Part shown: positions 9,951 through 56,868 of the stretch, piece after piece
How the letters are laid out: each line of letters starts with the position of its first letter
How positions within the stretch are numbered: the first letter of the stretch is position 1
DNA from: Myxococcales bacterium
Lineage (GTDB): Bacteria > Myxococcota_A > UBA9042 > JABWCM01
NCBI GenBank assembly: GCA_013360285.1
Contig: JABWCM010000001.1
Span: forward strand, 11,328 to 75,327
DNA: 64,000 bases
Direction of reading: 5' to 3'
Notes under the pieces: model-generated
Database searches by the model: none
Told to the model about the DNA's origin: nothing
Seen by the model: the letters and a program-made list of their open reading frames with translations, nothing else
Made by a program: the position numbers and the translations under genes

Positions 9951-10942
9951 CTCAATTTTCGCCACAGCGTATTGCGGGCTATACCCAGTTTGTCTGCCGC
10001 CATCGCTTGATTTCCTTGGCACAGATCCATGACACGTAAAATGTGTCGCCGTTCCATTTCCGCCAATGTCCACGTTTCCTGCTGATCGGTTGCCGATAAT
10101 TCTTCGGCACGGAATCGATTTTGATTTTGGCGTAATTCTTCGGGTAAATCCCGTGCTTCGATCCACAATCCGGTGGCCAACGCGGCACCATGACGTACGG
10201 CGTTTTGTAATTCCCGCACATTGCCGGGCCAGGCATAGTTTTGTAATTGTTGTTGTGCTTCGTTGGAAAAATCCTGGGCGACCACGGCTTCTTCCGCAAG
10301 AAAGGTTCGTGCCAACGGCAACACATCTTCTTTCCGGTCCCGAAGCGGCGGCATCGTCAACGTCAACACTTTCAGCCGAAAATACAGATCTTGCCGAAAT
10401 TTTCCTTCCCGGACCAGTTCGGCCAGATCCCGGTGGGTCGCACACACAATCCGCAAATCCACAGCAAATGTTTGGTTTTCGCCAACACGACGGATCTCCC
10501 CGTCCTGTAACGCACGTAATAGTTTGGCTTGTATGGGCAACGCCATTTCCCCAATTTCGTCAAGAAACAACGTGCCGGATGCCGCTTCTTCCATGAGCCC
10601 GCGCCGGCTGGAAGCGGCTCCCGTAAACGCGCCTTTTCCGTGGCCGAACAACTCCGACTCCAGCAGTTCCGTAGGCAATGCGGCAACATTGATCGCGACA
10701 AACGGTTGATTGGCCCGTCGGCTGTTTTGATGGATCAGCCGCGCGATGACTTCTTTTCCGGTTCCGGTTTCTCCATAAATCACCACCGGGGCTAGGCTTA
10801 CAGCAAATCGAGCCGCCCGTTTGCATACTTCCTGCATGACCGGTGACATAGACACTACAAAAGCCGACTTCGTCCATCGCGATACCACCGGTGCCATTCC
10901 ACATACATCACAAGTTGGTTTGTTCTGTTCCATGTGTTCCAT
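9938..10942 (-). CDS. Sigma-54-dependent transcriptional activator (bacterial enhancer-binding protein) consisting only of the AAA+ sigma-54 interaction domain and a C-terminal Fis-type HTH; no N-terminal sensory domain
   Basis: Motifs VVIYGETGTGKEV (Walker A), ESELFGHGKGAFTGA (GAFTGA sigma-54 contact loop), LFLDEIGEM (Walker B), C-terminal HTH ..AADKLGIARNTLWRKLRLYS. Only ~30 aa precede the AAA domain and include CDVCG; an alternative start would be Met31. Confidence 0.85.
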   Translation of the reverse strand: MEHMEQNKPTCDVCGMAPVVSRWTKSAFVVSMSPVMQEVCKRAARFAVSLAPVVIYGETGTGKEVIARLIHQNSRRANQPFVAINVAALPTELLESELFGHGKGAFTGAASSRRGLMEEAASGTLFLDEIGEMALPIQAKLLRALQDGEIRRVGENQTFAVDLRIVCATHRDLAELVREGKFRQDLYFRLKVLTLTMPPLRDRKEDVLPLARTFLAEEAVVAQDFSNEAQQQLQNYAWPGNVRELQNAVRHGAALATGLWIEARDLPEELRQNQNRFRAEELSATDQQETWTLAEMERRHILRVMDLCQGNQAMAADKLGIARNTLWRKLRLYS

Positions 10943-18668: not shown

Positions 18669-19046
18669 TGTTGTTGCTCCAAGTTTGTCTGGTCCATTGG
18701 GTCACTTCAGCCATTGAAGTCCCACCGGTGAAGTGATCAACTTGAGACGTATTTCTGCCAAGACTGCCCACACCGGTCGAAAATACGATTCCTGACACGA
18801 ACTTACCGAGCGCTCGTCGACGTGTCAATCCAAGAAGAACAATCCGGTTGAACGGAAACGGTTGACTGGACTCATGCCTGCGATCATAATCGGCACATCG
18901 AAATGAGAACTCTGCTGCCGGTAATCCGGAAGTAGGTTCATGCGACCAGTCGAATGGCGGTTTACTGATGTCGTGATGGCAAGAACACGTGTTTCGGACA
19001 CGGCGTTGTGGCATTCACGTTATGTCGCTTCAATGGGAAGGACCTA

Positions 19047-22000
19047 TGGCCAACGTTCATAAGCGATTCGCGGCCTTTGTTTCACTCTGGGTCGGTGTTT
19101 TTGTCTTTGGGGTGTCGTCTCTGGCTTACGCCGTATGTTTGACACCTCCGGGCAATATTGGAGGTGAGCCGGTCACCAACATTGTCGACGTTCAATGTTC
19201 GATCTTGATGAATCTGTGGTCGTTGGGTGGCCAGGTATCGCCGGTACCGACCTGTATTACGACCCCGGGATCGCCGTCGATTATTGCCGATCACAATTGC
19301 GACGGCGTGATCAACGTCGGCGATACGCTGTTGGCGATTAATTTTGCGTTAAGCATTATTTTGGAACCGATTATCGACGCCAACGGCAATCAATGTGTCG
19401 ATGCGTGCGAAGCCGATTCCGATGGCGACGGAACGACCGATTTATTGGATTGTGCGCCCAATAATCCCGACATTTCGGCGGCAAGTGAAGAGTTGTGTAA
19501 CGGTTGGGACGACAACTGTAATGGAATCGTCGACGATGCCGTTTTGCCTTCTGTTGCGGCGTCCTGCAGTGACAACACGGTCTGTACCGGCATCGAGACC
19601 TGCGGGGCACTTTTGCCGAATCTCGGTATCGTGATTACCGAAATCATGGTTCAACCGACAAAGGTGCCCGAAGCGGTCGGTGAATGGTTTGAGATCTACA
19701 ATGGCGGCACGACGGCGATCAACATTACCGGATGGACTATTTCCAATGCGTTGGGACAAACCCACACGATTGTTCCCGGTGGATCGTTGTTTGTACCGCC
19801 GGCGGGTTATTTGGTTTTAGGCGCCAACGCCAACTTCGCTCAAAACGGCGGCGCGCGGGTTGCTTATGCATATTTGGGGTTGACCCTAGATAATGGTGGC
19901 GGCTCGTTGGTGCTCAAAAACAAAGATGGTGTGGAAATGGATCGGGTGGATTACGGAGCCGCCAAAGGAATCGGTGTGGTTCCGGGAGCGTCGTTGTCGT
20001 TACTCCGCCCGGATTTGAACAATAATGTAGCTTCGTCCTGGACGAAATCGACTTTGCCGTTTGGTGCCGGGGACTTGGGAACACCGTGGTCACCCAATAT
20101 AGATGTCATGCCGTCGTTTTGCCAAGCGGGTAGTCCATTGAATTGTGTCGATGGCAACGGCTGTACCGACGATAGCTGTGATCCCGTGGGTGGTTGTGTT
20201 TATGTGGCCAATACCGCGGTGTGCGACGATGGCAATGCCTGCACAACTACGGATGGGTGTATCAATGGTGTTTGTGTGGGTGGCCCGGCACTTAATTGTG
20301 ATGATGCCAACGGTTGTACCGATGACTCCTGTGATTCGGCAACCGGTTGCGTAAACGTCGACAACACTGCGGCATGCGACGACGGCACGGCATGTACCGA
20401 CGGCGATGTGTGTCAAGACGGCGCTTGTGTATCCGGGCCGTTGCTCGACTGCGATGACGCCAATCCGTGTACTGACGATAGCTGTGATGCCGCCCAGGGA
20501 TGTGTGAACGCACCCAATACGGTTATTTGCGATGACGGCAATGCCTGTACAACTGCGGATGGGTGTATCAATGGTGTTTGTGTGGGTGGCCCGGCACTGG
20601 ATTGTGATGACGCCAACGGTTGTACCGATGATTCCTGTGATTTGGCAACAGGATGTGTAAACGTCAACAACACGGCTGTATGTGACGATGGCACAGGATG
20701 TACTGCCGGCGATGTATGCCAGGATGGTGACTGTGTTTCCGGACCGTTGCTCGATTGCGATGACGCCAACCCGTGCACCAACGATGGCTGCGATGCCGCC
20801 TTGGGATGTGTTCATACGCCCAACACGAATGCCTGCGACGACGGCAACACCTGCACAACCACCGATGGTTGTAGCAACAACGTTTGTGTGGGGGGGCCTC
20901 CACTCGATTGTGATGACGCCAACAGTTGTACCGATGATTCCTGTGATTCGACAACTGGATGTATCCAAACACCCAACCTTGCCGCCTGCGATGACGGGAA
21001 TCAGTGTACCGTGGGAGATGTCTGTGGAGGCGGTATCTGTCATTCGGGCTCCCCCCTCAATTGTAATGACGGCGATGAATGTACTGTCGACAGTTGTTTG
21101 CCCGAGTCCGGGTGTTTGTTTGTTCCGGCGCCCGGTTGTGAACTGGAGGGCAACGCCATTTGTTTGATTTCCGGACCTGCGGGAACCAAAGTGCTTTGTC
21201 CACTGAAGTTATCGCGAGCGACGATGGCCATGCCGCCGGCCACCAGTGTTCAGTTTCGGCTTGTATGGGATACAACGGCGGTCAATCCGCTTGGATTAAC
21301 CGACACGATCTGCACCGGTCCTGGGGGCACACCGCCCTGTTCGTCGGTGGGTATCCCCCCGGCTACTTTGGATCCAACCGGGCATTCGGTATTTCCCATT
21401 CCTGAAGATTTTGCCGCAGCCAATGGTGGATCGATCGTGTTTGTATTGCCGTTAAGTGAACCGACCACGCCTATCACCACGGCATATCAGTTTGTTGGGT
21501 CACCGGTGGGTAATCCGGAATTTCTGACTTTTGAAATCGAAAGCCTGGTCGATATTCCCGCATCGGCGCCCCTTGCAGTCGAAGTGTTTGATATTATAGG
21601 GGCGACCGCCACCGTAGCCCCGATGGTCGGCGGAATGCAAAACGGTGTCATGGTGATGGAACTGGTCAATTGTTCGCTGGATCCGTCTGTGTGTACCGAT
21701 GGCAGTATTTGTACTACCGACGGCTGTGATCCGGCGACGCACCAGTGTGTGTGGGTAGATGCTTTGGCCTGTAACGACGGGGATATGTGTAACGGCATCG
21801 AAAGTTGTGATCCAACCAATGGTTGCGAGCCCGGGAACACCCCCGATTGTGATGATGGGGTCGAATGCACTCAGGACACGTGTGATCCGGCTGTTGGATG
21901 CAAAAACGTAAACAACGACGCCGGTTGCGACGACGGCAAAAACTGCACCTTGGATGTATGTGACCCGGTTGAGGGATGTCAAAACCCCGTTGACGTGTCG

Positions 22001-25000
22001 TTATGTAATGACAACATCCCGTGTACCGAAGAAAGTTGTGATGCCGGTGGTCATTGTGTCCACACACCGATAGACGGCAATTGTGACGACGGCGCAGCAT
22101 GTACGACAGATGTTTGTGATCCCCAACTGGGTTGTCAATATACTTCCGACGTGTCTATTTGTACGGCCGACGACAATGCATGTACGGAAACCGTTTGTGT
22201 GCCGGTTCTGGGGTGCACAAACACACCTTCTCCCGGATGTCTGCCGGATGGTGCGGTATGTGCACTGAGTGGCACGGCAGGTCAAGAAGTGTCGTGTGTT
22301 ATTCGAGTAGCTCGTGCGACAATCGGCACACCGCTGCCGGCGGCGTTGCAGTGGGTTCTCACCTACGATGTGTCGTTGTTTTCACCTACCGCGTTTGAAG
22401 ACACCGTTTGTACAGGTCCAGGGGGAAGTGCACCTTGTGCGCCGGCGTTTGTGCCGCCTGCCGCGTTGTTTCCGTCCGGCCATACACTGGCGACGTTGCC
22501 GTCGGTGTCCCAATGGAACGGTTCGGGTCATGTTGTTGCCTATCATCCGACGGAGCCCACCTCGGTGCTGACGGAAGCAGTTCTGCAAGCGTCATCCATC
22601 GTGGGTGATCCGGCGATCGTGGTGCTCAAAGGTGTCCTGACGGTAGATATACCCGCCGAAACACCGATGTGGATCAACGCCGTCAATATTATCGGCGCAA
22701 GCGTCCAGGTCACTCCATTGTATGGGCAGGTCCAGGATGGGTTGATCGTATTGTCGGTTCCGGATTGCACGTCCTCGCCCGCGGTTTGTGAAGACGGCGA
22801 CCCCTGCACCGTGGACACCTGTTTTGAAGGAACTTGCACATATCAACCACAGCCGTGCAGTGACTCCGACGCATGTAACGGCACCGAAACTTGTTTGCCG
22901 TTGGTCGGTTGTCAGCTCGCCACCCCTCCTCAATGTGACGACGGTCAGAATTGTACTACCGATGGGTGCGATCCTGCCTTGGGGTGTGTTTATGCAGCCG
23001 ACGTGACCCAATGCGACGACTCCATTGCCTGCACAACAGATCAATGTCTACCGGTTTCCGGGTGTGTTCATATACCCGACGCCGGCGGTTGTAACGACGG
23101 GAACTTCTGCACTCTGGATCAATGTGATCCCGGTTTGGGTTGTACTCACACACCCGATGACAACGCCTGTGACGACGGGCAACTTTGTTCCACCGCGGTG
23201 TGCGATGTGCAGGCGGGGTGTGTTTTTGACACCGACGATGCAGCGTGTACGGATGACGGCGACCCTTGTACGACGTCCATGTGTGTTATCGGGGCTGGAT
23301 GCACCCATGTGCCGACCGAGACGTGTCCCACGTTGACATCATTATGCCTTTTGAGTGGAAACAGCGGCGATACAGTGGTCTGTACGTTACGACTTGCGAA
23401 AGGGACCGAGTTGACACCCAATCCGGCTTCGTTACAAGTTACGCTCACTTATGATGAGACCAAAGCCCAACCGACCGGCGTTTCGGACCAGGTATGTCCA
23501 GACCCGATGGGCCCATGTATGAGCCAATCGATCCCTCCCGGAGCGTTGTGGCCATCCGGACACACCGTTACACCCGCCCCGTTTCTATTTTCCAATTGGG
23601 GCGGGCAAGGGTCGTTGTTTTTCTATCATGCCGGGGATCCAGCCGCTCACTTAACGAGTGCATGGGAAAACGGTGACGGATTTGTAGGGGACACCCAACT
23701 TGTTGAACTGTCCTTTTTGCTGCTCGACGACGTAGCGCCGGAGTCGCCGATTGTTGTCGATGCGGGATCGATTATCGGCAGTACGGCGACCGTGGAAACG
23801 ATGATCGGCGCGGTGAAATCGGGTGTCATGGTGGTGTCGCTGGTGGATTGTACCACCGCACCAGGCGTTTGCGACGATGGGGATGCCTGTACGGTGGATT
23901 CATGTGATCCCGTCAGCAAGTCATGTGTGTATTCGACGCTCAATTGCAGCGATGGAGACGCCTGTAACGGCACGGAATCGTGTGTTTTCTGGAAAGGTTG
24001 TGTCCAAACACCGCCGCTCCAATGCGATGACGGCGTTGGCTGTACCCTGGATGTTTGTGACCCGGCAATCGGATGTTTGTTTACCCCCGTTGATGTCGAT
24101 TGCGATGATTCGATTGCCTGTACAAACGATGTCTGTGATCCCACCGTGGGGTGTATTTATACCGCCATGTCGGCGGATTGCGACGACAACGTGTCGTGTA
24201 CCATCGACACGTGTGTATTGGGTCTGGGTTGTCAATCTTTACCCGATGATTCATTTTGCGAAGATGGTGCGTCCTGTACGGCAGACACCTGTCATACCGT
24301 GTTGGGGTGTCAAACGAGTATCGATGACCTAGGTTGTGACGACTTCAACCCGTGCACGATCGACGCCTGTGTCCCAACACTCGGTTGTACCCATACTTTG
24401 ATTCAATCCATGGAATGTTTGCCGCCGGGCGCGTTGTGTGCGTTAAGCGGCGGCGCCGGGCAGGTCGTGACCTGTCCATTGCGGTTGGCGCGGGCCAATC
24501 CGGTCGCTCCGGGGGCGGCCGCGTTGCAGTTGAAGATCAGTTATGACCCTGTTGCATTGTCAATAGACGGTCTGGTTGATTCCCAATGTTTTGGACCGGG
24601 TGGGCCGTGTATGGATGTGGCTGTTCCGCCGGCGATGTTGTCTCCAACGGGGCATCAGGTAGCTCTGGCACCGAACACACCCGCGGCGTGGAACGGGTTG
24701 GGGACTGTATTTGTGTTCAACCCGGCCGATCCGACCGTTACGATTACCGAAGCGGCGGTAGACGCGGGAGCCGTGGCAGGCGATGCGTTGTTCGCCGAAT
24801 TGGTGTTCACGTTGCAGCAAACCATTGGTGCGGATAATCCGGCGATTGTCTGGCCGGAACAAATTCTTGGCAGCACGGCAATGGTGTCGCCGCTTGGTGG
24901 CAGCGTTGTTTCCGGTGTGATGATTACAAGTGTGGTGGGATGTCTCGACAACACCGAATGCGATGACGGAAACGCGTGCACGATAGATACTTGTACTACC

Positions 25001-25720
25001 GGAGTCTGTGAGTTTGAGTCTGGACCTGTGTGCAGTGATGGTGACCCTTGTAATGGGACCGAAAGTTGTGATCCGTGGACCGGTGGTTGTGTTTCCGGTG
25101 ACGTACCCGATTGTGACGATACGAACGATTGTACTACCGACGGTTGCGATGCCGGCGGATGTTTCCACGCGCCTCTGCTGACATCAGAATGTTTGCCGGA
25201 CGGGGCGTTGTGTGGCGCAGCCGGCCTTTCTGGTGAAGTGTTCACCTGCGAATTCCATGTGGTACGCGAATCGGCTTTGGTGCCGCCGGCCGCGGCTTTG
25301 GAAAGTACATTCAGCATGGATAACTCGGCTTTCAAGGTCACCAACTTTGTGGACACGGTTTGTTTTGGTGCGGGTGGGCAACCGCCCTGTTCCGACGTCT
25401 CGGTACCGCCCAATCTGTTGTTTCCGACGGGGCATTCGGTTGTTATTGTGCCGGAAAATCTCGCAATGTGGGCCGATGGTGGTTCGATTTTCTTGTTCAA
25501 TCTGAATGATCCAACGGTAGTGCTGACCCAAGCGGAAGCCGCCGCTGGGGCATCCAACGAATCTTTGGTTCTGAAAGTGGAAATAACGTTACAAAAAGAC
25601 ATCAGTGAGACCGAGCCTGCCTATCTGTGGGTAGGAGACATCAGCGGAGCAACGGTCGACGTACAGGAATTGGAAGGCCAATTGTTACAAGGAATTGTGG
25701 TGTTATCCGAAAAACCATAG
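19047..25720 (+). CDS. Giant (2224 aa) secreted multidomain protein: signal peptide, dockerin-like Ca-binding module, lamin-tail domain (LTD), more than 30 Cys-rich CxxDxNxCTxDxC repeats in five blocks, each block followed by a repeated ~250-aa Ig-like module
   Basis: GGAAGGA RBS before ATG 19047 (six-frame ORF starts 18989). Signal peptide MANVHKRFAAFVSLWVGVFVFGVSSLAYA. LTD ITEIMVQP..EWFEIYNGG..ITGWTISN..GGSLFVPPAGYLVLG. Repeats of CDDGNACTTxDGCxNGVCVGGPxLxCDDANxCTDDSCD. Five paralogous modules each start C(A/L)(L/I)SG.xG..V.C.L.(L/V)(A/S)R(A/E). Confidence 0.85.
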
Positions 25721-25727: not shown

Positions 25728-27188
25728 GTGATGAAGAGAGCGCTTTGGGGTGTATTGTGGGTGCTGTTGTTGCCGGCGTCGGTCGCCTGGGCGGTACCGA
25801 ATGAAATAACCTATTCGGGAAGACTGGAGGCATCCAACGGCTTGCCCTATGATGGGGAAGTCGCGGCGATGGCTCATGTTTACGATACATTGTCCGGCGG
25901 TACGCCGTTGTTTAGCCAAGATATGGGCGACGTGATCGTGGAGTCGGGGTTGTTTCGAATCACGTTGTCGGGGGCGACGCTTCAAAGTGTCATTCAAACC
26001 CACGATAATTTGTGGATCGAGTTTGAATTGGATGGCGAAACGATGGCGCCGCGGCAACGGCTTACCAGCGTTCCGTATGCCTCCATTTCCGGGGACACAA
26101 AACGTGTGGGCGGTGTTTTGGCGGGTGAGTTTGTCAAAAAGAGTGATCCCATTACGGAAACGGCTCTTCCGACCAATTCTTTGGATCGGGTCTCAAACGG
26201 CGCGATGTCGAACGAGTTCAAAAACGTGACCGCGGCGTATGTGGGCACGTTCAAAAACATCATGGATGCTCCGGATCCGGCTGCGACGTTGACGTTTAAC
26301 ACCGCGGAAACCGGCGATAGTTATATTACTTCGTTGACGGTTTACACCCAGTATTCATTGACGTTTGGCAGCTTTATTCAGATGGTGCTGACCCCGCCTG
26401 CTTCGTCGGGATTGGGTGCCATTACTTTGGTCAACGATTCGGCCAAAATCAACCCCGGCAGTTATGCTCAATCGTGGACCCCGGGCAATACGCCGGCATT
26501 GACTGCGCTATTGGGGAAAAAGTTGTCGGGAGTCTGGACGTTGTCGATTATCGATACCACCGATGATGCCGCTCCGGGCACGTCGGTTGGTAAATTAGAG
26601 GGATTTTCGCTTAATTACGACGTGGTCCGCTCCGACCATATCGGTCTTTCCGGCAAACTGGACGTATCCGGTGATCTGACGGTTGGCGGCCACGGAACGT
26701 TTGGCGGCAACCTGGTCGTGGGTGGAAATCTGACAACCATGGGCACTGCCATGGCCAAACCCATCATGTTTGATGGCTGGTGTGTTTCCCATGGCGGCAG
26801 CGACGGTGTTTTGATTCCTTATTGCCTTGATGGAAAAGCGGGGGATCCGCCTGCGGGTTGGTTCAGCGTGGATGCCGCTTTGGGTGAAGTGACGGTATTA
26901 CAAAAGGGGTGGTACACCATTACTTGGTATACCTGGAATCGAAACAATTGTGGAACACGGCATGATGCGTATCTTCAGGTCAACGGAAACACGTTGAGAG
27001 GAAGCGAAACCCGGGTGCCGGCAAACCTGGAAAACATGGCCCGGCTTGAAGGTACATTGTTGCTCAACGCCAACGACAAAGTCCGGGTAATGGCCCGTTC
27101 CAATTGCAGTTCTACGGAGCCCCATCGCAGTTTTTACGCGGGGCCGACCTGGAGCCATTTCAACATCAAACACGCGGGAACCCCATAA
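25728..27188 (+). CDS. Secreted fibrous-protein family member A: signal peptide, conserved ~125-aa N-terminal domain, variable C-terminal region
   Basis: Signal peptide MMKRALWGVLWVLLLPASVAWA. N-domain VPNEITYSGRLEASNGLPYDGEV..PRQRLTSVPYA shared with 27771, 30899(-) and 59502. Begins 8 nt after the giant gene's stop. Confidence 0.8.
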   Translation: MMKRALWGVLWVLLLPASVAWAVPNEITYSGRLEASNGLPYDGEVAAMAHVYDTLSGGTPLFSQDMGDVIVESGLFRITLSGATLQSVIQTHDNLWIEFELDGETMAPRQRLTSVPYASISGDTKRVGGVLAGEFVKKSDPITETALPTNSLDRVSNGAMSNEFKNVTAAYVGTFKNIMDAPDPAATLTFNTAETGDSYITSLTVYTQYSLTFGSFIQMVLTPPASSGLGAITLVNDSAKINPGSYAQSWTPGNTPALTALLGKKLSGVWTLSIIDTTDDAAPGTSVGKLEGFSLNYDVVRSDHIGLSGKLDVSGDLTVGGHGTFGGNLVVGGNLTTMGTAMAKPIMFDGWCVSHGGSDGVLIPYCLDGKAGDPPAGWFSVDAALGEVTVLQKGWYTITWYTWNRNNCGTRHDAYLQVNGNTLRGSETRVPANLENMARLEGTLLLNANDKVRVMARSNCSSTEPHRSFYAGPTWSHFNIKHAGTP

Positions 27189-27204: not shown

Positions 27205-27744
27205 ATGAAGATCAGTTCAAAATCGGGGCGCCGTTTTGCTCGATCCCTGCTTTTTTGTTTGTCGGTGGCGTTGCTTACGGCTGCGTCTTCGTCGTCGGTT
27301 TCCGCGCAGTGTTTGACACCACGGGGTGATCTCAACGGTGACGGCACCACCAATGTCGTGGACCTGCAATGCGGGATTTACGCCGTACTGAATGGGCTCA
27401 ACAACATTGTTTCACCGCCCGCGTGTTTGGCGTATCCGCTGGTCGCAGTCGACATCGATTGCAGCAACAACCTGGATGTGTCGGATTTGTTGGTGTTGAT
27501 TTATCACGCCGTACAATTGCCGTTGGACCCGTCGTTGGATGCGGATGGGGATTCGTGTCCGGATGCGTGTGAAATCCCGGATACACTGGATTCGGGTATT
27601 GGTTCTTTTGCGGGGCAATCCCAGAATTCAAAGTTTAAGTTAACAGCAATTGCGTCGGGATCGGAAAGCAGCGGAAGTTCCGCGAATTCCAATTTTACGT
27701 TGCGACCACAGGCGATTGGCATTGAGCCGGCCACAGGCGAATAG
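27205..27744 (+). CDS. Small secreted protein consisting essentially of the dockerin-like CLTPxGDxNGDGxxNVVDxQC module plus a Ser-rich tail
   Basis: GGAGGAGG RBS. Signal peptide. QCLTPRGDLNGDGTTNVVDLQCGIYAVLNGL..CSNNLDVSDLLVLIYHAVQLPLDPSLDADGDSCPDACE parallels the N-terminus of the 19047 giant and the C-terminus of the 32107 giant. Confidence 0.7.
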   Translation: MKISSKSGRRFARSLLFCLSVALLTAASSSSVSAQCLTPRGDLNGDGTTNVVDLQCGIYAVLNGLNNIVSPPACLAYPLVAVDIDCSNNLDVSDLLVLIYHAVQLPLDPSLDADGDSCPDACEIPDTLDSGIGSFAGQSQNSKFKLTAIASGSESSGSSANSNFTLRPQAIGIEPATGE

Positions 27745-27770: not shown

Positions 27771-29228
27771 ATGAAACGATTCATGATGATTTGGGCGGCC
27801 ACGACGTGCGGGCTGCTGGCCATTTCTTCCGCTTTTGCGGTACCCATGACGGTAACTTATTCCGGGCGGCTTGAGGCACAAAACGGGATGCCGTATGACG
27901 GCGAAGTGGATGTGATAACAAGTTTATGGAACGCGGCTACGGGTGGAACGAATCTGCTGGAACAGGATTTTGGGACCATTGTAGTGGAAAGTGGTTTGCT
28001 GCGGATTGCACTCAATGATGCCGCTTTGTCCAACGTGATCAAAACGAATGATGACGTGTGGATTCAGTTTACGTTGGACGGAGAACCGATGATGCCGCGG
28101 CAGATGTTGACTTCGGTACCGTATGCCATCAAAGCCGATGACGCATTGTCTTTAGGTGGCGTGTTGGCGGGTAATTTTGTAAAAAAGACCGACAAAGTTG
28201 CCAACGCGGCGTTACCGACCAACGGTTTGGCCTGGGTTTCCAACGGCGGTATGTCGAACGAGTTTGCCGATGTGAAATCGAGCTGGACTGGGCCGGTACA
28301 AAACGTCACGGATTATCCTGGGTTGGGCGCGCAGGCGACGGTGACGGCTGCTGAAGGGTCCAACAGTTATATGACGGATCTCACGATTTACACCCAATTT
28401 ACGTTGACGTTGAACAGTTTTGTCGAAGTGATTTTGGTGCCGCCGGCGGGGACCGGTGTGGGTGCAATTACGGTATATAACAACGCAAGTGGTAAGTTAA
28501 ATGCGGGCATTTATGCCGACACCTGGACCCCGGGGAACCTCCCGGCGTTGGGCGCGTTGCTCACCAAAAACGTTGCCGGTACGTGGACGTTAACCATTAC
28601 CGATACCACCCAAGATGCGGCTCCCGGCACGGTGGTTGGAGTCTTGCAGAAATTTGACGTCGAATACGACGCGGTTCGGTCCAACCATATCAAGATCAAC
28701 GGTAAATTGGACGTGGCCGGAGATATTCAGGCGACCGGCATGGTCAAAGCGACTGGATTTCAGGGCGATGGTTCGTTGCTCAAAGGGATTACCCCGATTA
28801 TCGGGGTCACGGTATTTGAATCGGCGACTCGAAAGTCGCTTGGCGGTGCGGCGAGCATCGTCATGGAATCATTTACCGTCAACAAAAAATCTCCAACCAG
28901 CATTTTGTTGATCGAAGGCTCTATTTCCGGTCATACCAATGCCAGCGGATCGATGCAGCAAGGATGGAAATTGGGTTCCGGGACCGAAGTATTGGGTCAA
29001 GGACTCCAGTATACGGCGGACCCACATGCGAAAACCTTTCCCACGAGAGCGGTGATCACGGGTCATACCACCACCGGACCCCAAACGATGGTATTCCGAT
29101 ACTTCTGCCCCAACAACGATACCGGAAACCGCCCGTTTGCGATCTACAATCCGAACAGTTCCGACGATGGTCGTTTGGGCCAAACCCGGTCGATTTATAC
29201 CGTGTGGGAAATCGAACCCAATTTCTAA
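27771..29228 (+). CDS. Secreted fibrous-protein family member B (close paralogue of A over the full length)
   Basis: GAGGAG RBS. Signal peptide MKRFMMIWAATTCGLLAISSAFA. N-domain VPMTVTYSGRLEAQNGMPYDGEV..PRQMLTSVPYA. Confidence 0.8.
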   Translation: MKRFMMIWAATTCGLLAISSAFAVPMTVTYSGRLEAQNGMPYDGEVDVITSLWNAATGGTNLLEQDFGTIVVESGLLRIALNDAALSNVIKTNDDVWIQFTLDGEPMMPRQMLTSVPYAIKADDALSLGGVLAGNFVKKTDKVANAALPTNGLAWVSNGGMSNEFADVKSSWTGPVQNVTDYPGLGAQATVTAAEGSNSYMTDLTIYTQFTLTLNSFVEVILVPPAGTGVGAITVYNNASGKLNAGIYADTWTPGNLPALGALLTKNVAGTWTLTITDTTQDAAPGTVVGVLQKFDVEYDAVRSNHIKINGKLDVAGDIQATGMVKATGFQGDGSLLKGITPIIGVTVFESATRKSLGGAASIVMESFTVNKKSPTSILLIEGSISGHTNASGSMQQGWKLGSGTEVLGQGLQYTADPHAKTFPTRAVITGHTTTGPQTMVFRYFCPNNDTGNRPFAIYNPNSSDDGRLGQTRSIYTVWEIEPNF

Positions 29229-31979: not shown

Positions 31980-32106
31980 TTCCGGCTCCTTCCAAAGGGC
32001 ATCGCCACGGGCCAAGGTTGATCCTTTTCCCAAAAACGTTACGCCGTCTGTTCTGAACCTTACGGTACTTCCGTTGGGACCGGTGTGTCAATCGGCAACG
32101 ACGGGG

Positions 32107-35100
32107 TTACAATTCGCAACTATCGGGGCATTTGTTGGCGTTGGCGTCGATGAGTGGATTGAGCGGTGCTCCCAGCGCCAAAGAAATGATTAAGTTAACA
32201 TCTACAATCGTGACCGAACTATCACAGTCCACGTTGGCGTATTTGGGGTTTCCGGCTTTGAGACAACCCGGCGGCGGACCGCTTTGGTTATCCAACACCC
32301 ACAACGACGTCAAAATACCGCACTGGGTATCCGATACGTTGATGAAGTTGTCGCCGTTGACGTCGCCGACAAGTTCAAGGCTGCATACTTGGCACGGGCC
32401 GCAGTCCGCCGAACAGGTTGCACAGGACTCATCAAGAGTGCATACGCCGTTGCCGCAGCACCCGCCGCCGCAGGCTTCCGAAGCGATATCGGCGCATTCG
32501 TCGTCCCACGCCAACAGGCAACAGGCGGGGTCAAAACCACAAACGCAGGTTTGAACTCCGGGATCGTTACATCCCGGAAGCAGCCCGCCTTCACAGCAGT
32601 TCGACTCACAGGGTACGGCCTGTCCCGGATCGTGGGGGTTGGTTTTTTCCAGCCACTCACAAATGTTGTTGGAACCATCGTGATCGGGATCAAACACCGC
32701 GTCATTTTGATGTGGGTCCAGGCCAAAAATCACTTCCCAAGCGTCGTTCATCCCGTCGCCGTCATGGTCGTACGGAATCGTTAAGATACCGCTTTGGACC
32801 GACGCGCCGTTTGAATCTTGAACCACAACCCGGGTGGTTACCGATTGGGTTTGGCTGCCTTTTGCCACAAAAACGCCGTTGGTATTGACCGTCGCCCAAT
32901 TCGGGTTGAGCACGGACCAACTGTAAGGGGGCTCCCCGCCAAATGCCTCAAAATCCACCGTATCGCCGGCGACAACGATTTGATTTGCAATCGGAGCTAC
33001 GACCAGAGGAATATTTTCCAGTCCCGCTTTTGGATACACAAATGCCAGTGTTGTGCCCACTTGGGCGTTTTGGTCGGTGACCGTCACTTCGACCCACCCC
33101 AAACTCACGCCCGTTAACTTACCCTGACCGTCTATCGTAGCGACGGCGTTATCGCTGGTGGCCCACACCAGGGGTGCAACCGAAGCCCCAACGGCGAATT
33201 GAATGGTTTCCCCCACCATGACGATGGGTAAAGTGGGGGTCAATACAATCGTATAAGGGTCGACTTTCAGCGGGTTGGTGCCGTCCAAAAACTCATTGAG
33301 ATTCACAAAAATGTCATTATCCGGGTTCCCCTGCGGATCATCGACTCCCCACGCCAACTCCCAAATATCCGCCATATCATCATTGTCGGTGTCGTTGGCT
33401 TGCTGCATCGGGCTTGTTCCGTCGAGCCATTCCACAATACTTTTGATGTTGTCAAAATCCGGGTTCCCCAAAGCGTCATCAACCTGCCAATTCAAATCGG
33501 GTGCAAACGCCCGTTCCCAGTAGTTGGGCATTCCATCGCCGTCCATGTCCCCATATTGGGTGTTGGCAACATCCGGGTTGGCCCCGCTGGTCATTTCCAA
33601 CAAATCCGGTTTGTCGTCCTGGTCCGGGTCATTGCCGGCGTTGGCCACCAGTGGGTTTCTCCCCATCACCCGTTCGTACCGATCCGGCAACCCATCTTGG
33701 TCGGTATCGGTCAGTAGATCGGTGTGGGTCAAGGGCAACAACCCCGACAAAAATTCCAACGTGTTGGGAATCGCATCCAAATCCGGATCGGCTGTCGCAT
33801 CGGCGGTATTCCAGTCCGTTCCGTAAGCCGCCTCCCACCGTGTAGGCAGCCCGTCACCGTCCCCATCCAACAACGCCGAGTTGGGAACATAAGGGGACGT
33901 TCCATTTAAATACTCAATTCCCGTCGGCATCAAATCCAAATCGGGGTCGGTCCAGAAATCGGCGATCAAGGGGTGCAGCCCCACCGCCTGTTCGTACATA
34001 TCCGGCATTCCATCGTTATCCTGGTCGGTCAAAGTAAGGTTGTCGACCGTCGGGGGCGTGGTGTTTTCGTGCTCCACGAGGTTGGGTAATCCGTCCCCAT
34101 CGGGATCGTCTGATGCATCAAACACAAACGGATCCGTCCCTTGTAACGCTTCCCACGCAGTAAACATAAAGTCCCCGTCGTGGTCGGTTTTGCGGTCATC
34201 CACAAACGGCAACGTTCCAAGCTCCATTTCTTTTAAGTTCGACAACCCATCCCCATCCGGGTCGGCCAACGAATCATCCACCAATGGGTCCAACCCCACG
34301 TTGACCTCGTAACCATCTTCCAGTTGGTCCCCATCGGTGTCGGGATGTAACGGGTCGGTATTGAGTTGATATTCTTTGTCATTTTTTAATCCATCGCCAT
34401 CGGGATCGTCCGCACCATTGGCAATCGTGGGATCAAATCCATAATCGAGTTCCCAATGATCCCCTAAGCCGTCCTGATCGTAATCCCACGGCACCGTAAT
34501 CACCCCACTGAGGGCCGCATTGTTCAGCGCATCCAAAACAATGACGATCGACGTTTGATTCACCGTCGGGAAACCGGTGGCCGTAAACAACCCGTCGTCA
34601 TCGATCCATCCCGCGTTGTCGTTGGTCACAATCCAAAAGTAGGGTGTGATTCCTCCGGTGGCCGCCAACTGGAGTGTTCCTCCGGTGACCACCTTGTGGG
34701 GGCCCGGAGGTGTGATGGCCATTGCTACAATCGGTTCGGCTTTGGCCATCACCACCGTCGATGGTGCACTTTCCCCCAACGCCGAAAAAGCGGTCACTTT
34801 GTACCAATAAGGTGTATCCAGTTCCACCTGGAAATCCTTAAACAGCGTGGTTTCCAAGCCGACTACGCTCCACGGAATATACGGCCCTTCTTCGGCAGTT
34901 GCGCGGTAGATTTTATACCCTTCCAGTCCTCGTTCCTGATTGGGTAACCAGGCCACCACGGTGTAATCCGGTGTTCCCGAGGCCTGAACACCCGTCGGCG
35001 CATCGATGGTTGCCAACCCCGGCAAAATCCGAATCGTGCCGTCCTCTTGTCCTAAGACCAAATCGTAAGTCCCATCTCCGTCCCAATCGAGATGCATGGG

Positions 35101-38100
35101 AACCGTACGGCCGGTGCTGTCGGTTTCAATGACCTGGATTGGATTATACGAAAACAGCCCGGAAATCGCCGCGGTCCACAACAACACCTGCCCGGTACCA
35201 TTGCCCGAAATCAAATCGCGGCTTCCTTTGCCGTCCAAATCATAACTAAACCACGGTGTTGCTTCCTGCCCAGCATCCAACGGCGCCGTGTTGTTGGAGC
35301 CGGTCATCAACGTTGGGCCGGAAAGAACCGGGGCGTTGTCGGTGCCGACGTTGAGGAAGAGTTCAAAATGACCATCGGCACGCCCCACCATCCAGTCCCG
35401 ATTGCCGTCCCCATTCCAATCGACCACGACGGGACGTGCGGGTACCGGACGAACCAAATCGATCAAGGTGTTGCCGGGTCCAGGAACCTGAACGTAGGTG
35501 GGGGCTTGGTCAAATTGGGGTTGGGTTGGTGAGCCGGTGTTCATATAAAACCGGAATCTCCCACTGCTTTCTTGGGCAGCCAGATCCAACAGGCGATCCC
35601 CGTTCCAGTCCACCAGAATGGGGTCGGTGGGTGCGCCCAACAGAATGGGTTGGCCAGTTGTTTCAATGGCGACGGGTGTTTCCCAAACGGGGTTTGCCTG
35701 ATCCCCAACGTTGTGGGTTATCCACAATCCGCCTGTTCCATCGCCCAAAACGAGATCCATGTCGCCGTCGAGATTCCAATCCACGGCATCTACGGAAATC
35801 GGTCCCACGAGCCCCGTCAGGATCCCGATGTCGGCCAGGGTTGGTTCCCCATACGCCACCGGCGTGGAATGGGGATTCGGCGAAACCTCGATTTCCACAG
35901 GTGATTCCGCAAGCTCCATTCCCACGGCTCGCGCGGTTCCATAACCGGTTGCCCACACCGTCACAAAATGGGGCCGCGCAACCGTATCCACCGCGGCGAG
36001 TGCTTGCACCGGTCCCACAAACCGCCCTGGATACCCCCATGTCCCGTCGGCATACACGTTGGCTCCACCCACCAGGCTGTCCACCCGCAACGTCGGGTTA
36101 AACACAAAGGGGTCGGTATTGTTTTTGTACTCATCGCCGGTCGTCAACGTGTCCCCATCGGGATCCCCCAACGCATCCAAAGGATTTTTCGGGTTGAGTC
36201 CATTTGCCGTTTCCCACGAGTCTTTGAGTCCATCGTTATCAAAATCAAGCGGAACCGTGATCAACCCGCTTGTTAACTTACCTCCGCCGGCGTTTGTGGC
36301 CGTCACGGTGGTGGTCGTTGCCGTTGTTGACGAAACGGCAGTAAACAAACCGTTGTTGTCGACGATACCGACCGCCGGTTCGGATGACGACCACGATACC
36401 GGCACAAAATTCCCAATGATTCCAAATTGAAGGTTGTCTCCCGCCACCACGAGTTGTGGGCCCTCCGGAGTGATCGCCAGGGGAGGGACACTCACCGGTT
36501 TGACCACAAACTTAGCTGCGAGATTCCCTGATTTACCGTCGGCGTTGGTGACGACCACCGAATATTGTCCCGGCGGCACACCTTCCAGGTCGACCGTCGT
36601 GGTCAACGAGGTTCCGGTGGTGACCGTATTGGGGGCGGCGACGGTCATCGACGTTCCCACAAACGACAACGTTGCATCGGGAAAAAGGTGGGTTCCGCTC
36701 ACCGTCAAGGCGACCTCCGTTCCTGTTTCTGAACTCAGCGGTGTCATGGAGACCAACACCGGCGGGCCGTTGTCGGTATTGTTGCTTATGACCGACGGAT
36801 TTCCCCCAGCGTCGATGGTTTTCATTGCAAAATACAACACGTTTCCCCCCGGCAAACCGCCGGCCATCCAGGTTTGGGTATCTCCGGCCGCCACGGGTGT
36901 CGGGGGATCGCCAACGGGGATCGCCGTTCCAAACGTCGCCTGAGTAATGGGGCTCGTGGAATACCGGATGTCGTAAGCGTCTGCCGTGCCGGTAAATCCA
37001 TTGTCGCCGGGTGCCGTCCAGGTTAACAAAACCGTGCCGATCCCCACGCCGATGACCTGGAGGTCCCCAATCGGTCCTGGAGCGATCAAGTCGCTCGAAA
37101 TGGTTTTCCAGGGGTTAAACAACACCAAGTTGGTGACGGCGTCGCCGGTTCCTCCTGGATTGGTTGTATGGGTGGGGCCGGTAGACGATCCCCACCAGTT
37201 CTGCGTCGCATCCACCACCAGGGCACCCAGATTTTGTACCCCAAAGCTGGTGTTGCCCACCAATTGGGATTCGTGGATCTGCGGTGCCCCTCCTTGAACC
37301 AACATCCCCACCGTATTGTTTTGCAGGGTACAACCCGTTACAACGGCATTGCCCGCGGTCACCCGAATCCCGGCACCGCCGTTTGAAAAAACGCACCCGT
37401 TGATCGTGGGTGCGGCATTAACAAGCGTGACCGCCCCATACAAGCCGGTGCCCAACGGCCCATTGGTTCCAAAATATTGCCCTTGGGTTTGTCCTCCATA
37501 ACGGAAGGTGGACGCGGTAAAACTCGACGTGTCGGACGCCAGGTTCAACAACACAAATCCACCATAATTTCCGCCGGTTGGGATCGTCGTGGGGCCGTTG
37601 TTTTCGGTGTCGCCACCGACTGTGTCATCGGCCAATGACGTAAACAGGGCTCCGTTGGCGATCACTTTGCCCGTAAGCGCAGCGTTGGTATCGTGTCCGA
37701 CGACGATATAAGTTCCATTGGCCCCACTGGTGCTGGCTGCCGGTCCAAATTTCACGATGGTGCCGGGGCTAAACTCCAACGTCGGCATGGGGTTTCCTGC
37801 GACGGTTGTGATGGTTCCGGGTTCGAGCACGTAGGTAAATCCCGCCGGCAACCCCCCCCAGATGCCGCTTTGGTTCATGGTTCCTCCACGGACAAAAATC
37901 GCATTGTGGTGGGCCGGCGAACTGTTGGCGATCCAAGTGTTGTTGGCGCCCGGTGCGGTGAGTCCGGCGATGGAGTTGGGGGTCAGGCTAATGGGATAGT
38001 TGGCGTTCCCCAAAAAGAACGATCCGGTAATGGAGGCATTGTTGGCATAAACCCCATGCCCTTTGTTGCCATTGATGGTGCAGTTGGACACGGTGAGTGG

Positions 38101-48381: not shown

Positions 48382-48647
48382 TGGCTTTTTCCTTTGGCAA
48401 AACGAACAACCGAGGGTGGATTGCGAATTGTCGGACCACGCGCGGGTTCAACTGGATTGGTCGTATCGCACTGGCGATCCAGATGCAACCGCGGAATTGT
48501 CATCGGTTCATTATTAACAAGAGGGTGTTTGGGAAAAAATTGCCGGTGAGCGAAACAGTGGTCGTAACGAGTCGGCCGGCCGACCGAGGCACGGCCGACG
48601 TAGTAGGCCAGTGTTTCGAGTAACGTAATTTTTTACCCAAACACCTT

Positions 48648-56658: not shown

Positions 56659-56868
56659 CGTAAACTGACTCCTTATCCGCCTAGCAGGTTAGTCCACAAA
56701 CTCAAAAGAGATGTGGGCGAGTTGTTTTCAACCAATCCTGGACCGATGTCCATCCCGGAATCGGTAGTGCGGCGAAATTTTTGTGCTAAAAACAGACATC
56801 TTGTGAAAAGGCGGGGGCAACGTGATAGGTATTGGGGGTAATCAAGCGGGGGCATAACGTTAAATGAG

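What the first reader, a model, noticed from the sequence alone, without database searches (positions are those of the whole stretch)
19100..19400. Shared ~100-aa dockerin-like Ca-binding module (CLTPxGDxNGDGxxNVVDxQC ... DxNxDxxVxxxDxLxxI ... DADGDxCPDACE) in three different proteins, once as a stand-alone gene
The module occurs just after the signal peptide of the 19047 giant, as essentially the whole mature 27205..27744 protein, and at the extreme C-terminus of the 32107..41916 giant (32110-32400). Two EF-hand-like DxNxDG loops flanked by conserved Cys pairs resemble type-I dockerins. A free dockerin-only protein next to dockerin-bearing giants suggests a cohesin-dockerin-like assembly, an anchoring system or a competitive regulator of attachment. 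No cohesin-like partner is identifiable in the window.
Basis: seen in the sequence. Interest (0 to 1): 0.6.

Follow-up and report, generated by a model that had tools for sequence, protein, structure and literature searches.

The report
Myxobacterial-type cohesin–dockerin scaffold operon
The shared 90-residue module is a real but unusual (disulfide-clamped, three-calcium-loop) dockerin, and the first giant protein that carries it also carries five previously unnoticed cohesin modules, so the locus looks like a non-cellulosomal "scaffold and plug" system for assembling surface proteins in an uncultured Myxococcota-like bacterium.

Summary
Exactly three copies of an ~88-92-aa six-Cys module lie in the window: 19136-19411(+), 27310-27573(+) and 32113-32385(-). 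They are about 42% identical to one another.

The module is a divergent dockerin. Of 89 family members, 76 hit Pfam Dockerin_1. hhalign gives 96% probability against the C. thermocellum Xyn10B dockerin. Twenty of 21 PDB profile hits are dockerins. It differs from classical dockerins by three inferred disulfides and a conserved third EF-hand-like loop (D-x-[DN]-x-[DN]-x-C-x-D-x-C-[EQ]).

It belongs to a family of at least 748 protein clusters. The module usually sits just after the signal peptide or at the extreme C-terminus of varied secreted cargo.

Giant 1 contains five ~172-aa repeats that fold as cohesins (AlphaFold pLDDT 97; the top 50 PDB matches are all cohesins). Giant 1 is therefore a scaffoldin-like protein: dockerin, LTD, Cys-rich spacers and five cohesins.

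Giant 1 forms a tight four-gene cluster with two fibre-adhesin genes and the small dockerin protein. The order cohesin-ending gene, small dockerin gene, fibre gene recurs in an unrelated metagenome contig. The small protein is not dockerin-only; it has a conserved 56-aa tail.

Dockerin-cohesin binding is inferred, not shown. Verdict: new variant of a known kind.

The parts
19046..25720 (+). Giant 1 (2224 aa), scaffoldin-like: signal peptide, dockerin-like module, TSP3/MopE-like Ca motif, lamin-tail domain (aa 194-304), Dicty_CTDC-type Cys-rich repeats, five cohesin-fold modules
   Evidence: Translation. Pfam hits LTD 1.2e-15, Dicty_CTDC 5.5e-76, Cohesin 26.2 bits against a cutoff of 24.1. Closest homologues are named 'lamin tail domain-containing protein [Myxococcales bacterium]'.
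19136..19411 (+). Dockerin-like module 1 (aa 31-122 of giant 1). First Ca loop degenerate (NIGGEPVTNIVD); second (DHNCDGVINVGD) and third (DANGNQCVDACE) loops intact
   Evidence: Pfam Dockerin_1 E 0.0086, below the cutoff.
21152..21664 (+). Cohesin-fold module 1 of giant 1
   Evidence: HMM from non-window homologues, E 8.6e-41. Aligned with the other four in A3.
22250..22762 (+). Cohesin-fold module 2
   Evidence: E 1.7e-43.
23339..23842 (+). Cohesin-fold module 3
   Evidence: E 1e-41.
24428..24934 (+). Cohesin-fold module 4, the copy that was modelled
   Evidence: AF2 pLDDT 97.1, pTM 0.90. Foldseek against PDB: top 50 hits all cohesins, best 5nrk_A E 1e-4, probability 1.00. Pfam Cohesin E 1.4e-4.
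25202..25711 (+). Cohesin-fold module 5, at the C-terminus of giant 1
   Evidence: E 3.1e-39. 39% identical to the C-terminal cohesin of the gene upstream of P0001 in L026.
25728..27188 (+). Fibre-like protein 1: signal peptide, conserved N-terminal domain, variable C-terminal ~150 aa. Starts 7 nt after giant 1
   Evidence: Weak NCBIfam Bdello_MAT_N hit, E 6e-7. Paralogue comparison. Intergenic gaps.
27205..27744 (+). Small secreted protein (179 aa): signal peptide (aa 1-34), dockerin-like module, 56-aa tail
   Evidence: Exact copies in the same gene context in five metagenome contigs.
27310..27573 (+). Dockerin-like module 2. All three loops canonical: DLNGDGTTNVVD, DIDCSNNLDVSD, DADGDSCPDACE
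27574..27741 (+). Conserved tail of the small protein with a duplicated G-x-S-x4-[FYWL]-x-L-x-[PA] motif
   Evidence: Alignment of 20 tails from distinct clusters; tail HMM hits only this site in the window, E 1.1e-18.
27771..29228 (+). Fibre-like protein 2, paralogue of fibre 1. About 55% identical over the first 300 aa and under 20% over the last 150. Starts 26 nt after the small gene
   Evidence: Weak Pfam P_proprotein hit.
32107..41916 (-). Giant 2 (3269 aa) client protein: signal peptide, repeated right-handed beta-helix/NosD units, fn3, FG-GAP, bacterial TSP3 repeats, Big_2, Cys-rich CC...WD..C region, C-terminal dockerin-like module
   Evidence: Pfam. Start and signal peptide by comparison with the 80%-identical P0012.
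32113..32385 (-). Dockerin-like module 3, at the extreme C-terminus of giant 2. Loops DVNGDNFINVSD, NVDCDSSVTIVD, DANANKCPDSCE
   Evidence: 90% identical to the module of P0012.

Best explanation
The ~90-aa module is a divergent type-I-like dockerin. It has two Ca2+-binding loop-helix (F-hand) segments, and it is extended by a third EF-hand-like loop and clamped by three disulfides. It acts as a portable docking tag on secreted proteins.

Its most likely partners are the 172-aa cohesin-fold modules. Five of these sit in giant 1, separated by rigid Cys-rich repeats. Giant 1 is therefore an adaptor-type scaffoldin with an N-terminal dockerin and five cohesins.

Giant 2, a beta-helix/TSP3 adhesin-like protein with a C-terminal dockerin, and the small dockerin-plus-tail protein would be clients that plug into these cohesins in a Ca2+-dependent way. 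Giant 1's own dockerin would plug into a cohesin on another molecule, either an anchoring protein encoded elsewhere or another copy of giant 1.

The result would be a cellulosome-like but non-cellulolytic surface assembly in an uncultured Myxococcota-type bacterium, co-expressed with fibre adhesins.

Shown here: homology of the module to dockerins; the cohesin fold of the repeats; the modular distribution of the family; the tight gene cluster; and its conservation in one independent contig.

Inferred: that these dockerins bind these cohesins, which dockerin binds which cohesin, Ca2+ occupancy of the three loops, the disulfide pattern, and cell-surface location.
For: Dockerin homology:
- 76 of 89 family modules hit Pfam Dockerin_1 (best E 1.5e-11).
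- A profile search of PDB gives 20 dockerins among 21 hits (best E 2.9e-4).
- hhalign against the Xyn10B dockerin (2ccl_B) gives probability 96.2%, E 2e-9, aligning both loop-helix segments.
- Loop positions 1 and 12 are D in 160-167 of 167 sequences.

Cohesin fold:
- AF2 pLDDT 97.1.
- Foldseek top 50 PDB hits are all cohesins, probability 1.00.
- Pfam Cohesin scores above its cutoff on whole giant 1 and hits 7 of 26 family domains weakly.

Functional linkage:
- Dockerin and this Cys-containing cohesin type occur in the same polypeptide in 12 of 155 proteins.
- These include five Doc-Coh-Doc proteins, such as the 399-aa P0003.
- Seven secreted proteins consist only of 2-3 tandem dockerins, which makes sense for connectors.
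- The module sits at either terminus of unrelated cargo: LamG lectin, LPMO/BIM1-like, Ig/CarboxypepD_reg, beta-propeller/cytochrome c, LTD arrays.
- Dockerin subtype tracks protein architecture.

Gene arrangement:
- Giant 1, fibre 1, the small dockerin gene and fibre 2 are separated by 7, 16 and 26 nt, each gap with a Shine-Dalgarno-like motif.
- The order [gene ending in a cohesin], [small Doc+tail], [fibre] recurs in independent contig L026 at 39-59% protein identity.
Against: - No binding data and no complex prediction were possible.
- The AF2 model of the dockerin itself is poor (pLDDT 59.5). Its PDB matches, though all dockerins, are not significant (E > 1).
- None of the three window copies reaches the Pfam Dockerin_1 cutoff.
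- Sequence searches do not connect the repeats to solved cohesins.
- The five cohesins are only 30-42% identical to each other and show no positional orthology with those of P0018, so specificities cannot be assigned.
- Most family members (143 of 155 listed) have no cohesin in the same protein, and the short metagenome contigs examined showed none nearby.
- Only three dockerins are in the window for five cohesins.
- No membrane or cell-wall anchor was found.
- The first Ca loop of giant 1's dockerin is degenerate.
- An N-terminal position (142 of 168 modules) is atypical for classical dockerins.
Confidence: 0.6

Rival explanations
1. The modules are genuine dockerin homologues, but their partner is not the cohesin set of giant 1. 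They would bind something else: cohesins encoded elsewhere, a cell-surface glycan or protein, or each other. The cohesin-fold repeats of giant 1 would then serve another role, such as structural Ig-like spacers or ligand binding.
For: Most family members have no cohesin in the same protein or contig. Many non-cellulosomal dockerins lack known partners (own knowledge of Peer et al. 2009, not held in the library). The cohesins are divergent, without positional orthology. Sequence-level cohesin signal is borderline.
Against: The same dockerin type and the same Cys-containing cohesin type recur together in one polypeptide, in 12 proteins and two architectures. Tandem-dockerin-only proteins exist. 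The small dockerin gene is conserved directly after a cohesin-ending gene. The cohesin fold is specific: the top 50 PDB hits are all cohesins.
Confidence: 0.25
2. The module is mainly a Ca2+- and disulfide-stabilised N-terminal cap or sorting element, for example marking proteins for a particular export, surface-retention or vesicle route. It would not be a protein-protein docking plug.
For: 142 of 168 modules start within ~130 residues of the N-terminus, typically 1-2 residues after the signal-peptidase site. The module is attached to very diverse cargo.
Against: The same module is at the extreme C-terminus in 22 cases and internal in 4, which position-dependent sorting signals do not tolerate. 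It occurs in tandem and as Doc-Coh-Doc. It retains the duplicated recognition-helix layout of dockerins.
Confidence: 0.08
3. One reading: the small protein is a free dockerin that competes for cohesin sites and so regulates or caps the assembly.
For: It is small, secreted and co-transcribed with the scaffoldin. All three of its Ca loops are canonical.
Against: It is not dockerin-only. A 56-aa tail with a duplicated motif is conserved in 20 proteins from distinct clusters, which implies the tail has a function of its own. The gene lies between, or next to, fibre genes in two species, which fits an adaptor or cargo role equally well.
Confidence: 0.15

Closest known systems
Type I dockerin (Pfam PF00404) of clostridial/ruminococcal cellulosomes, e.g. 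C. thermocellum Xyn10B dockerin (PDB 1ohz/2ccl)
   Same: Two tandem segments, each a 12-residue D-x-[ND]-x-[DNS]-G-x-x-[ND]-x-x-D Ca2+ loop followed by a helix. The internal duplication is kept: 'V-x-D-V-Q' follows both loops. The module is portable at protein termini and is encoded beside a multi-cohesin protein.
   Different: Six conserved Cys. C1 and C5 are lost together in 15 sequences, so they probably pair. Cys replaces Gly at position 4 of loop 2. The inter-helix linker is longer. There is a ~20-aa C-terminal extension with a third EF-hand-like loop ending in E/Q. The module is mostly N-terminal. The cargo is not cellulolytic. The host is Gram-negative and Myxococcota-like. The window copies fall below the Pfam cutoff.
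Cohesin modules and scaffoldins (Pfam PF00963; CipA, ScaB and adaptor scaffoldins such as ScaA)
   Same: Beta-sandwich cohesin fold. Several cohesins lie on one polypeptide together with one dockerin of a distinct subtype, as in adaptor scaffoldins.
   Different: The domain is ~172 aa, with four conserved Cys and a conserved P-x-G-H loop. TM-scores are only 0.4-0.68. The cohesins are only 30-42% identical to each other. The spacers are rigid Dicty_CTDC Cys-rich repeats rather than Pro/Thr linkers. There is no CBM and no SLH anchor; an LTD and a MopE/TSP3 motif are present instead.
'Planctosome' hypothesis for Nemodlikiaceae (Planctomycetes), Andrei et al. 2019, PMC6461901
   Same: A proposed non-cellulosomal cohesin-dockerin complex in an aquatic Gram-negative bacterium with a shared domain vocabulary: signal peptide followed directly by a dockerin, a large LTD protein, TSP3 repeats, proprotein-convertase P-domains and a cohesin.
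   Different: That model has single cohesins on two proteins and peptidase clients. It is also untested. Here one protein carries five cohesins plus the dockerin, the clients are adhesin-like, the dockerin and cohesin are Cys-rich variants, and the lineage is Myxococcota-like.
Non-cellulosomal cohesin/dockerin-like modules across the three domains (Peer et al. 2009, FEMS Microbiol Lett; cited from own knowledge, paper not held)
   Same: Dockerin and cohesin modules on non-cellulolytic proteins, sometimes both in one protein.
   Different: To my knowledge those are mostly single modules. This Cys-rich, three-loop subfamily and a five-cohesin scaffoldin in Myxococcota were not found in the searched literature.
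Thrombospondin type 3 / EF-hand Ca2+ loops
   Same: The third loop, D-x-[DN]-x-[DN]-x-C-x-D-x-C-[EQ], has the EF-hand ligand spacing 1-3-5-9-12 and a TSP3-like Cys context. A weak Pfam TSP_3 hit spans it in giant 1.
   Different: It is a single loop fused to a dockerin core, not a TSP3 repeat array. Ca2+ binding is inferred only.

Membership tests
Dockerin type I (PF00404) | Two tandem ~22-residue segments, each a 12-residue Ca2+-binding loop (ligands at 1, 3, 5, 9, 12) followed by an alpha-helix | tested here: met
   Alignments to solved dockerins cover both segments. Loop statistics over 167 sequences. Exception: loop 1 of the giant 1 copy is degenerate.
Dockerin type I (PF00404) | Scores at or above the Pfam gathering cutoff (22.9 bits) | tested here: not met
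   Window copies score 16.7 bits, 11.3 bits and no hit. At family level, 76 of 89 members hit at E<1 (best 1.5e-11), and relative P0028 passes with 25.9 bits. The window copies are therefore divergent members of the superfamily, not clean PF00404 matches.
Dockerin type I (PF00404) | Compact three-helix dockerin fold | tested here: inconclusive
   AF2 with 5 sequences gave pLDDT 59.5, with helices at 16-30, 47-51 and 61-71. The top 7 Foldseek PDB hits are dockerins, but E is 1.5-7.8 and TM 0.31-0.57.
Dockerin type I (PF00404) | Ca2+-dependent high-affinity binding to a cohesin | not testable with these tools
   Needs binding assays or multimer prediction.
Cohesin (PF00963) | Nine-stranded beta-sandwich (jelly-roll) cohesin fold | tested here: met
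Cohesin (PF00963) | Scores at or above the Pfam gathering cutoff (24.1 bits) | tested here: inconclusive
   Whole giant 1 scores 26.2 bits, above the cutoff, but with no single stretch passing. Isolated repeat 4 scores 22.5 bits. 7 of 26 family domains hit at E<1. A PDB sequence-profile search found no cohesin.
Scaffoldin (cellulosome-type) | Several cohesins on one secreted polypeptide | tested here: met
   Five modules, E 1e-39 to 1e-48 with an independent HMM.
Scaffoldin (cellulosome-type) | Carbohydrate-binding module and glycoside-hydrolase clients (cellulolytic function) | tested here: not met
   No CBM or GH domains in giant 1, giant 2 or the neighbouring genes. The system is therefore not a cellulosome.
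Scaffoldin (cellulosome-type) | Cell anchoring via SLH, sortase or an anchoring scaffoldin | tested here: not met
   No SLH or sortase signal in the window. The only candidates are the LTD and the N-terminal dockerin of giant 1. The rest of the genome is not available.
Planctosome-like non-cellulosomal Coh-Doc system (hypothetical, PMC6461901) | LTD-bearing large secreted protein with cohesin, plus proteins with a dockerin directly after the signal peptide, and no cellulolytic enzymes | tested here: met
   The reference system itself is only a bioinformatic hypothesis.

The most novel reading that the evidence does not exclude
The four-gene cluster would encode a modular 'adhesin rack'. A five-cohesin scaffold on the cell surface would display exchangeable dockerin-tagged proteins. 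The small dockerin-plus-tail protein would be the missing adaptor that couples MAT-like adhesive fibres onto the scaffold through their conserved N-terminal domain. This would give a concrete answer to the open question of what anchors the invariant N-terminal domain of predatory-bacterium MAT fibres (stated as unknown in PMC10769870). It would also make this the first multi-cohesin scaffoldin system outside Firmicutes.
Probability: 0.2. Interest if true: 0.8.

Novelty: new variant of a known kind. Interest (0 to 1): 0.6.

Why it matters
Cohesin-dockerin pairing is the textbook high-affinity 'plug and socket' of cellulosomes, and it is widely used in synthetic biology. To my knowledge, multi-cohesin scaffoldins are essentially a Firmicutes feature.

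The case here differs in several ways. It is a five-cohesin scaffoldin with its own dockerin, in a Myxococcota-like Gram-negative bacterium. It is built from disulfide-rich variants of both modules. It sits beside adhesin-like clients and fibre genes.

If the inferred binding holds, three things follow:
- The principle extends to surface or adhesion architecture in aerobic, probably predatory bacteria.
- It supplies a family of at least 748 protein clusters carrying an unannotated docking tag.
- It offers oxidation-stable cohesin-dockerin pairs for engineering.

It also gives a testable lead on how MAT-like fibres are held on the cell.

Tried and rejected
- Word-indexed protein search with the cohesin alignment A5 scored 8000 candidates and none passed. 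No census of the cohesin family was obtained.
- The same tool with the module alignment A1 found only 2 relatives. The exhaustive HMM search was needed.
- With A2, the one genome-contig scan used a narrow pattern and returned only one MAG.
- A degenerate DNA pattern on metagenome contigs gave 15 short loci, 12 of them true, but none was long enough to show cohesins.
- PDB sequence-profile searches with the cohesin repeats gave no cohesin hits.
- I looked for positional orthology between the five cohesins of giant 1 and those of P0018 to argue for site-specific partners. None was found; all pairs are 30-42% identical.
- I looked for the small protein's tail motif elsewhere in the window, in other family proteins and in other loci. 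None was found.
- Exact-sequence contig look-ups for P0011, P0020 and giant 1 found nothing, so wider synteny and direct taxonomy of the window were not obtained.
- The lipoprotein reading of the N-terminal Cys is rejected by eye. The residues before the Cys (AYAV-C, VSAQ-C) do not form a lipobox.
- The Rfam scan and the promoter/terminator scan added nothing.
- Peer et al. 2009 is not held in the library.
Full report
**Observation**

- aa 31-122 of the protein 19046-25720, nt 19136-19411 (+)
- aa 36-123 of the 179-aa protein 27205-27744, nt 27310-27573 (+)
- the C-terminal 91 residues, followed only by Leu and the stop, of the protein 32107-41916, nt 32113-32385 (-)

The copies are about 42% identical pairwise, with 27 invariant columns that include six Cys. 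A six-frame HMM scan of the whole window finds exactly these three copies and no others. An HMM built only from relatives outside the window finds the same three at E 1e-30 to 1e-31.

Each copy follows or belongs to a protein with a predicted A-x-A signal peptide (read by eye). The true start of giant 2 is 41916, by comparison with an 80%-identical homologue.

**What the module is**

On their own, the window copies give only sub-threshold Pfam Dockerin_1 hits (E 0.0086, E 0.41 and none).

An exhaustive profile search of 1.84 billion representative proteins found 748 relatives at E <= 1e-3 and 504 at E <= 1e-10. An 89-sequence alignment of these relatives (A4) gives three results:
- 76 of 89 members hit Dockerin_1, best E 1.5e-11.
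- 20 of 21 PDB profile hits are dockerins, best 5lxv_B at E 2.9e-4.
- hhalign against the C. thermocellum Xyn10B dockerin gives 96.2% probability, E 2e-9, and aligns both loop-helix segments.

Over 167 sequences, both 12-residue loops keep the dockerin ligand pattern. Position 1 is D in 160-161 and position 12 is D in 167.

The module is therefore a dockerin homologue, with three differences from classical dockerins.

1. It has six conserved Cys. The first and fifth are lost together in 15 sequences and singly in only 10, which suggests a C1-C5 disulfide tying the two ends. Cys replaces the usual Gly at position 4 of loop 2 in 166 of 167 sequences.
2. It has a ~20-residue C-terminal extension with a third EF-hand-spaced loop, D-x-[DN]-x-[DN]-x-C-x-D-x-C-[EQ]. 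D1 is present in 167 of 167 and D9 in 163 of 167.
3. It is placed differently. Of 168 modules, 142 are N-terminal just after the signal peptide, 22 are at the extreme C-terminus and 4 are internal.

The only structure model of the module, built from 5 sequences, is poor (pLDDT 59.5). Its seven best PDB matches are all dockerins but are not significant.

In the copy at the flagged coordinates, the first loop is degenerate (NIGGEPVTNIVD).

**The missed partner**

Pfam on giant 1 reports LTD, Dicty_CTDC repeats and a borderline Cohesin hit (26.2 bits against a cutoff of 24.1). Reading the sequence shows five ~172-aa repeats, 36-42% identical to one another, each starting C-x-L-S-G-x-x-G-x-x-V-x-C. 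Their coordinates are 21152-21664, 22250-22762, 23339-23842, 24428-24934 and 25202-25711.

With a 26-sequence alignment, AlphaFold models repeat 4 at pLDDT 97.1 as an all-beta sandwich. Foldseek against the PDB returns cohesins for all of the top 50 hits, including types I and II. Probability is 0.97-1.00, best E is 1e-4, and TM reaches 0.68.

Giant 1 therefore has this order: signal peptide, dockerin, TSP3/MopE-like motif, LTD, Cys-rich repeats, then five cohesins separated by more Cys-rich repeats. That is the layout of an adaptor scaffoldin.

**Evidence that the two module types belong together**

Among 155 proteins (150 listed relatives, 2 from the earlier search and the 3 window proteins), 12 carry this Cys-containing cohesin type in the same chain as the dockerin:
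- seven scaffoldin-like proteins with 1-5 cohesins
- five Doc-...-Coh-Doc proteins, the smallest being P0003 at 399 aa

Seven secreted proteins consist only of two or three tandem dockerins. That architecture is hard to explain except as a connector.

Cargo attached to the module is diverse: a LamG lectin-like domain, an LPMO/BIM1-like copper domain, Ig-like and CarboxypepD_reg domains, beta-propeller/cytochrome c, LTD arrays and FG-GAP. A thioredoxin-fold putative selenoprotein is another example.

Each window dockerin is most similar to dockerins on proteins of the same architecture. Giant 1's is 58-68% identical to those of other LTD/cohesin proteins, and giant 2's is 90% identical to that of P0012. 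The cohesins, by contrast, are only 30-42% identical.

**Gene context**

Giant 1, fibre gene 1, the small dockerin gene and fibre gene 2 are co-directional. They are separated by 7, 16 and 26 nt, each gap with a Shine-Dalgarno-like GAGG motif. This looks like an operon.

The two fibre proteins are paralogues. They are about 55% identical over the first 300 aa and under 20% over the last 150. They have a weak match to the N-terminal domain model of Bdellovibrio MAT fibres (E 6e-7, below the cutoff).

An independent JGI contig, L026, carries P0001, whose module is 59% identical to the small protein's. It shows the same neighbourhood:
- the upstream gene ends in a cohesin module (E 3.9e-39, 39% identical to cohesin 5)
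- then comes the small dockerin-plus-tail gene
- then a fibre gene (N-terminal domain E 3.6e-28, 49% identical)

The small protein is not dockerin-only. Its 56-aa tail, with a duplicated G-x-S-x4-[FYWL]-x-L-x-[PA] motif, is shared by 20 proteins from distinct 50%-identity clusters. It occurs nowhere else in the window.

**Source organism**

The closest relatives of giant 1's N-terminus are named by NCBI 'lamin tail domain-containing protein [Myxococcales bacterium]' and '[Myxococcota bacterium]'. No dockerin is annotated in their precomputed Pfam lists. Other family members come from a Myxococcota JABWCM01 MAG and from Myxococcales bacterium AMX-MBFR-64. Exact copies of the window's small protein occur only in unassigned metagenome assemblies. 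The window is most likely from an uncultured Myxococcota-type bacterium. This is an inference.

**Mechanism proposed**

The dockerin modules plug into the cohesins of giant 1 in a Ca2+-dependent way. Giant 2 and the small protein are clients. Giant 1's own conserved dockerin subtype attaches it to another cohesin, either on an anchoring protein elsewhere in the genome or on another scaffold molecule.

Disulfides and a third Ca2+ loop would stabilise the plug in an oxidising extracellular setting. The Cys-rich repeats would act as stiff spacers.

Homology, fold, modularity and synteny are shown here. Binding, pairing specificity, Ca2+ stoichiometry, the disulfide map and surface location are inferred. 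I give this reading 0.6.

The rivals are:
- the dockerins bind something other than these cohesins (0.25)
- the module is an N-terminal stabilising or sorting cap (0.08), which is contradicted by the C-terminal, tandem and Doc-Coh-Doc arrangements
- for the small protein, a capping or competitor role (0.15) versus an adaptor or cargo role

**Comparison with known systems**

It works like a cellulosomal cohesin-dockerin scaffold, but it is not a cellulosome. There is no CBM, no glycoside hydrolase and no SLH anchor.

The closest published analogue I found is the untested 'planctosome' model in freshwater Planctomycetes. That model also combines an LTD protein, TSP3 repeats, P-domains, a cohesin and a dockerin placed right after the signal peptide (PMC6461901).

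Non-cellulosomal cohesin and dockerin modules in all three domains of life were catalogued by Peer et al. 2009 (own knowledge; the paper is not held). Dockerin-rich giant proteins are reported in Omnitrophota (bioRxiv 10.1101/2023.11.21.568195).

Searches for dockerin with myxobacteria or Myxococcota found no description of this subfamily or of a multi-cohesin scaffoldin there.

Verdict: new variant of a known kind.

**Speculative extension**

The Bdellovibrio MAT-fibre paper states that the partner of the invariant N-terminal fibre domain is unknown (PMC10769870). The conserved scaffoldin / small dockerin / fibre neighbourhood seen here suggests that the small protein could be the adaptor between fibres and scaffold. 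The MAT similarity is weak and nothing about tail-fibre binding was tested. I give this 0.2.

Noticed in passing
window 25728-27188(+), 27771-29228(+), 30899-32008(-), 59502-60941(+): Four proteins share a fibre-like N-terminal domain (~140 aa, motif ITYSGRLE..G.PYDGEV) with different C-terminal parts. One of them (30899-32008) carries collagen triple-helix repeats. There is a weak, sub-cutoff match to NCBIfam Bdello_MAT_N. This looks like a tip-swapped adhesive fibre family, as in predatory bacteria.
   Followed up: partly
L010 3387-4181(+) (Myxococcales bacterium AMX-MBFR-64); also L001-L003 (P0002 plus the following 97-aa ORF) and P0069: A dockerin-module protein reads in frame through a TGA...LLASW[TGA]GFCVSQ..., giving a W-U-G-F-C redox motif in a thioredoxin-fold (TlpA/AhpC-like) domain. 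A 6-bp hairpin (CTCCCA-GGC-TGGGAG) lies shortly downstream of the TGA. This is a likely selenoprotein that gene callers split into two ORFs.
   Followed up: partly
window 32386-32640(-), just upstream of the dockerin in giant 2; also P0015, P0050, P0057, P0060, P0109, P0130, P0140: A Cys-rich unit, CC-x(6-8)-GC-x-D-x(4-6)-C-V-C-x2-D-x2-CC-x3-WD-x2-C, recurs next to the dockerin module in many family proteins, sometimes in long arrays. No Pfam match was seen.
   Followed up: no
P0004-P0008, P0019, P0094 (family relatives, not in the window): Small secreted proteins made only of two or three tandem dockerin modules. These lack Cys 1 and Cys 5. They are possible cross-linkers between cohesin-bearing proteins.
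   Followed up: partly
window 193-8810(+): Four co-directional genes, three pairs overlapping. The first encodes an AAA ATPase with a winged-helix domain (193-2328). The other three encode proteins of 392, 502 and 1296 aa with no Pfam match. The cluster is followed by a low-GC stretch (8001-10000, GC 0.417 against ~0.54). It is unexplained and possibly a mobile or defence-type island.
   Followed up: no
window 54166-59384: Bacillithiol-type genes: BshC (56869-58512) and two PIG-L/BshB-like deacetylases (54166-56658, 58500-59384). This is unexpected for a Myxococcota-like genome, if that assignment is right.
   Followed up: no
window 47450-48451(-): A second collagen triple-helix repeat protein with an IPT/TIG domain.
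   Followed up: no
window 42424-46752(+): A 1442-aa SNF2-family helicase with a ~880-aa N-terminal region lacking any Pfam match, divergently placed next to giant 2.
   Followed up: no
L017 4799-6835 and 7108-7881 (marine metagenome contig Ga0114996_10015636): Two adjacent genes each begin with the dockerin-like module, showing that module-bearing genes cluster in other organisms too.
   Followed up: no
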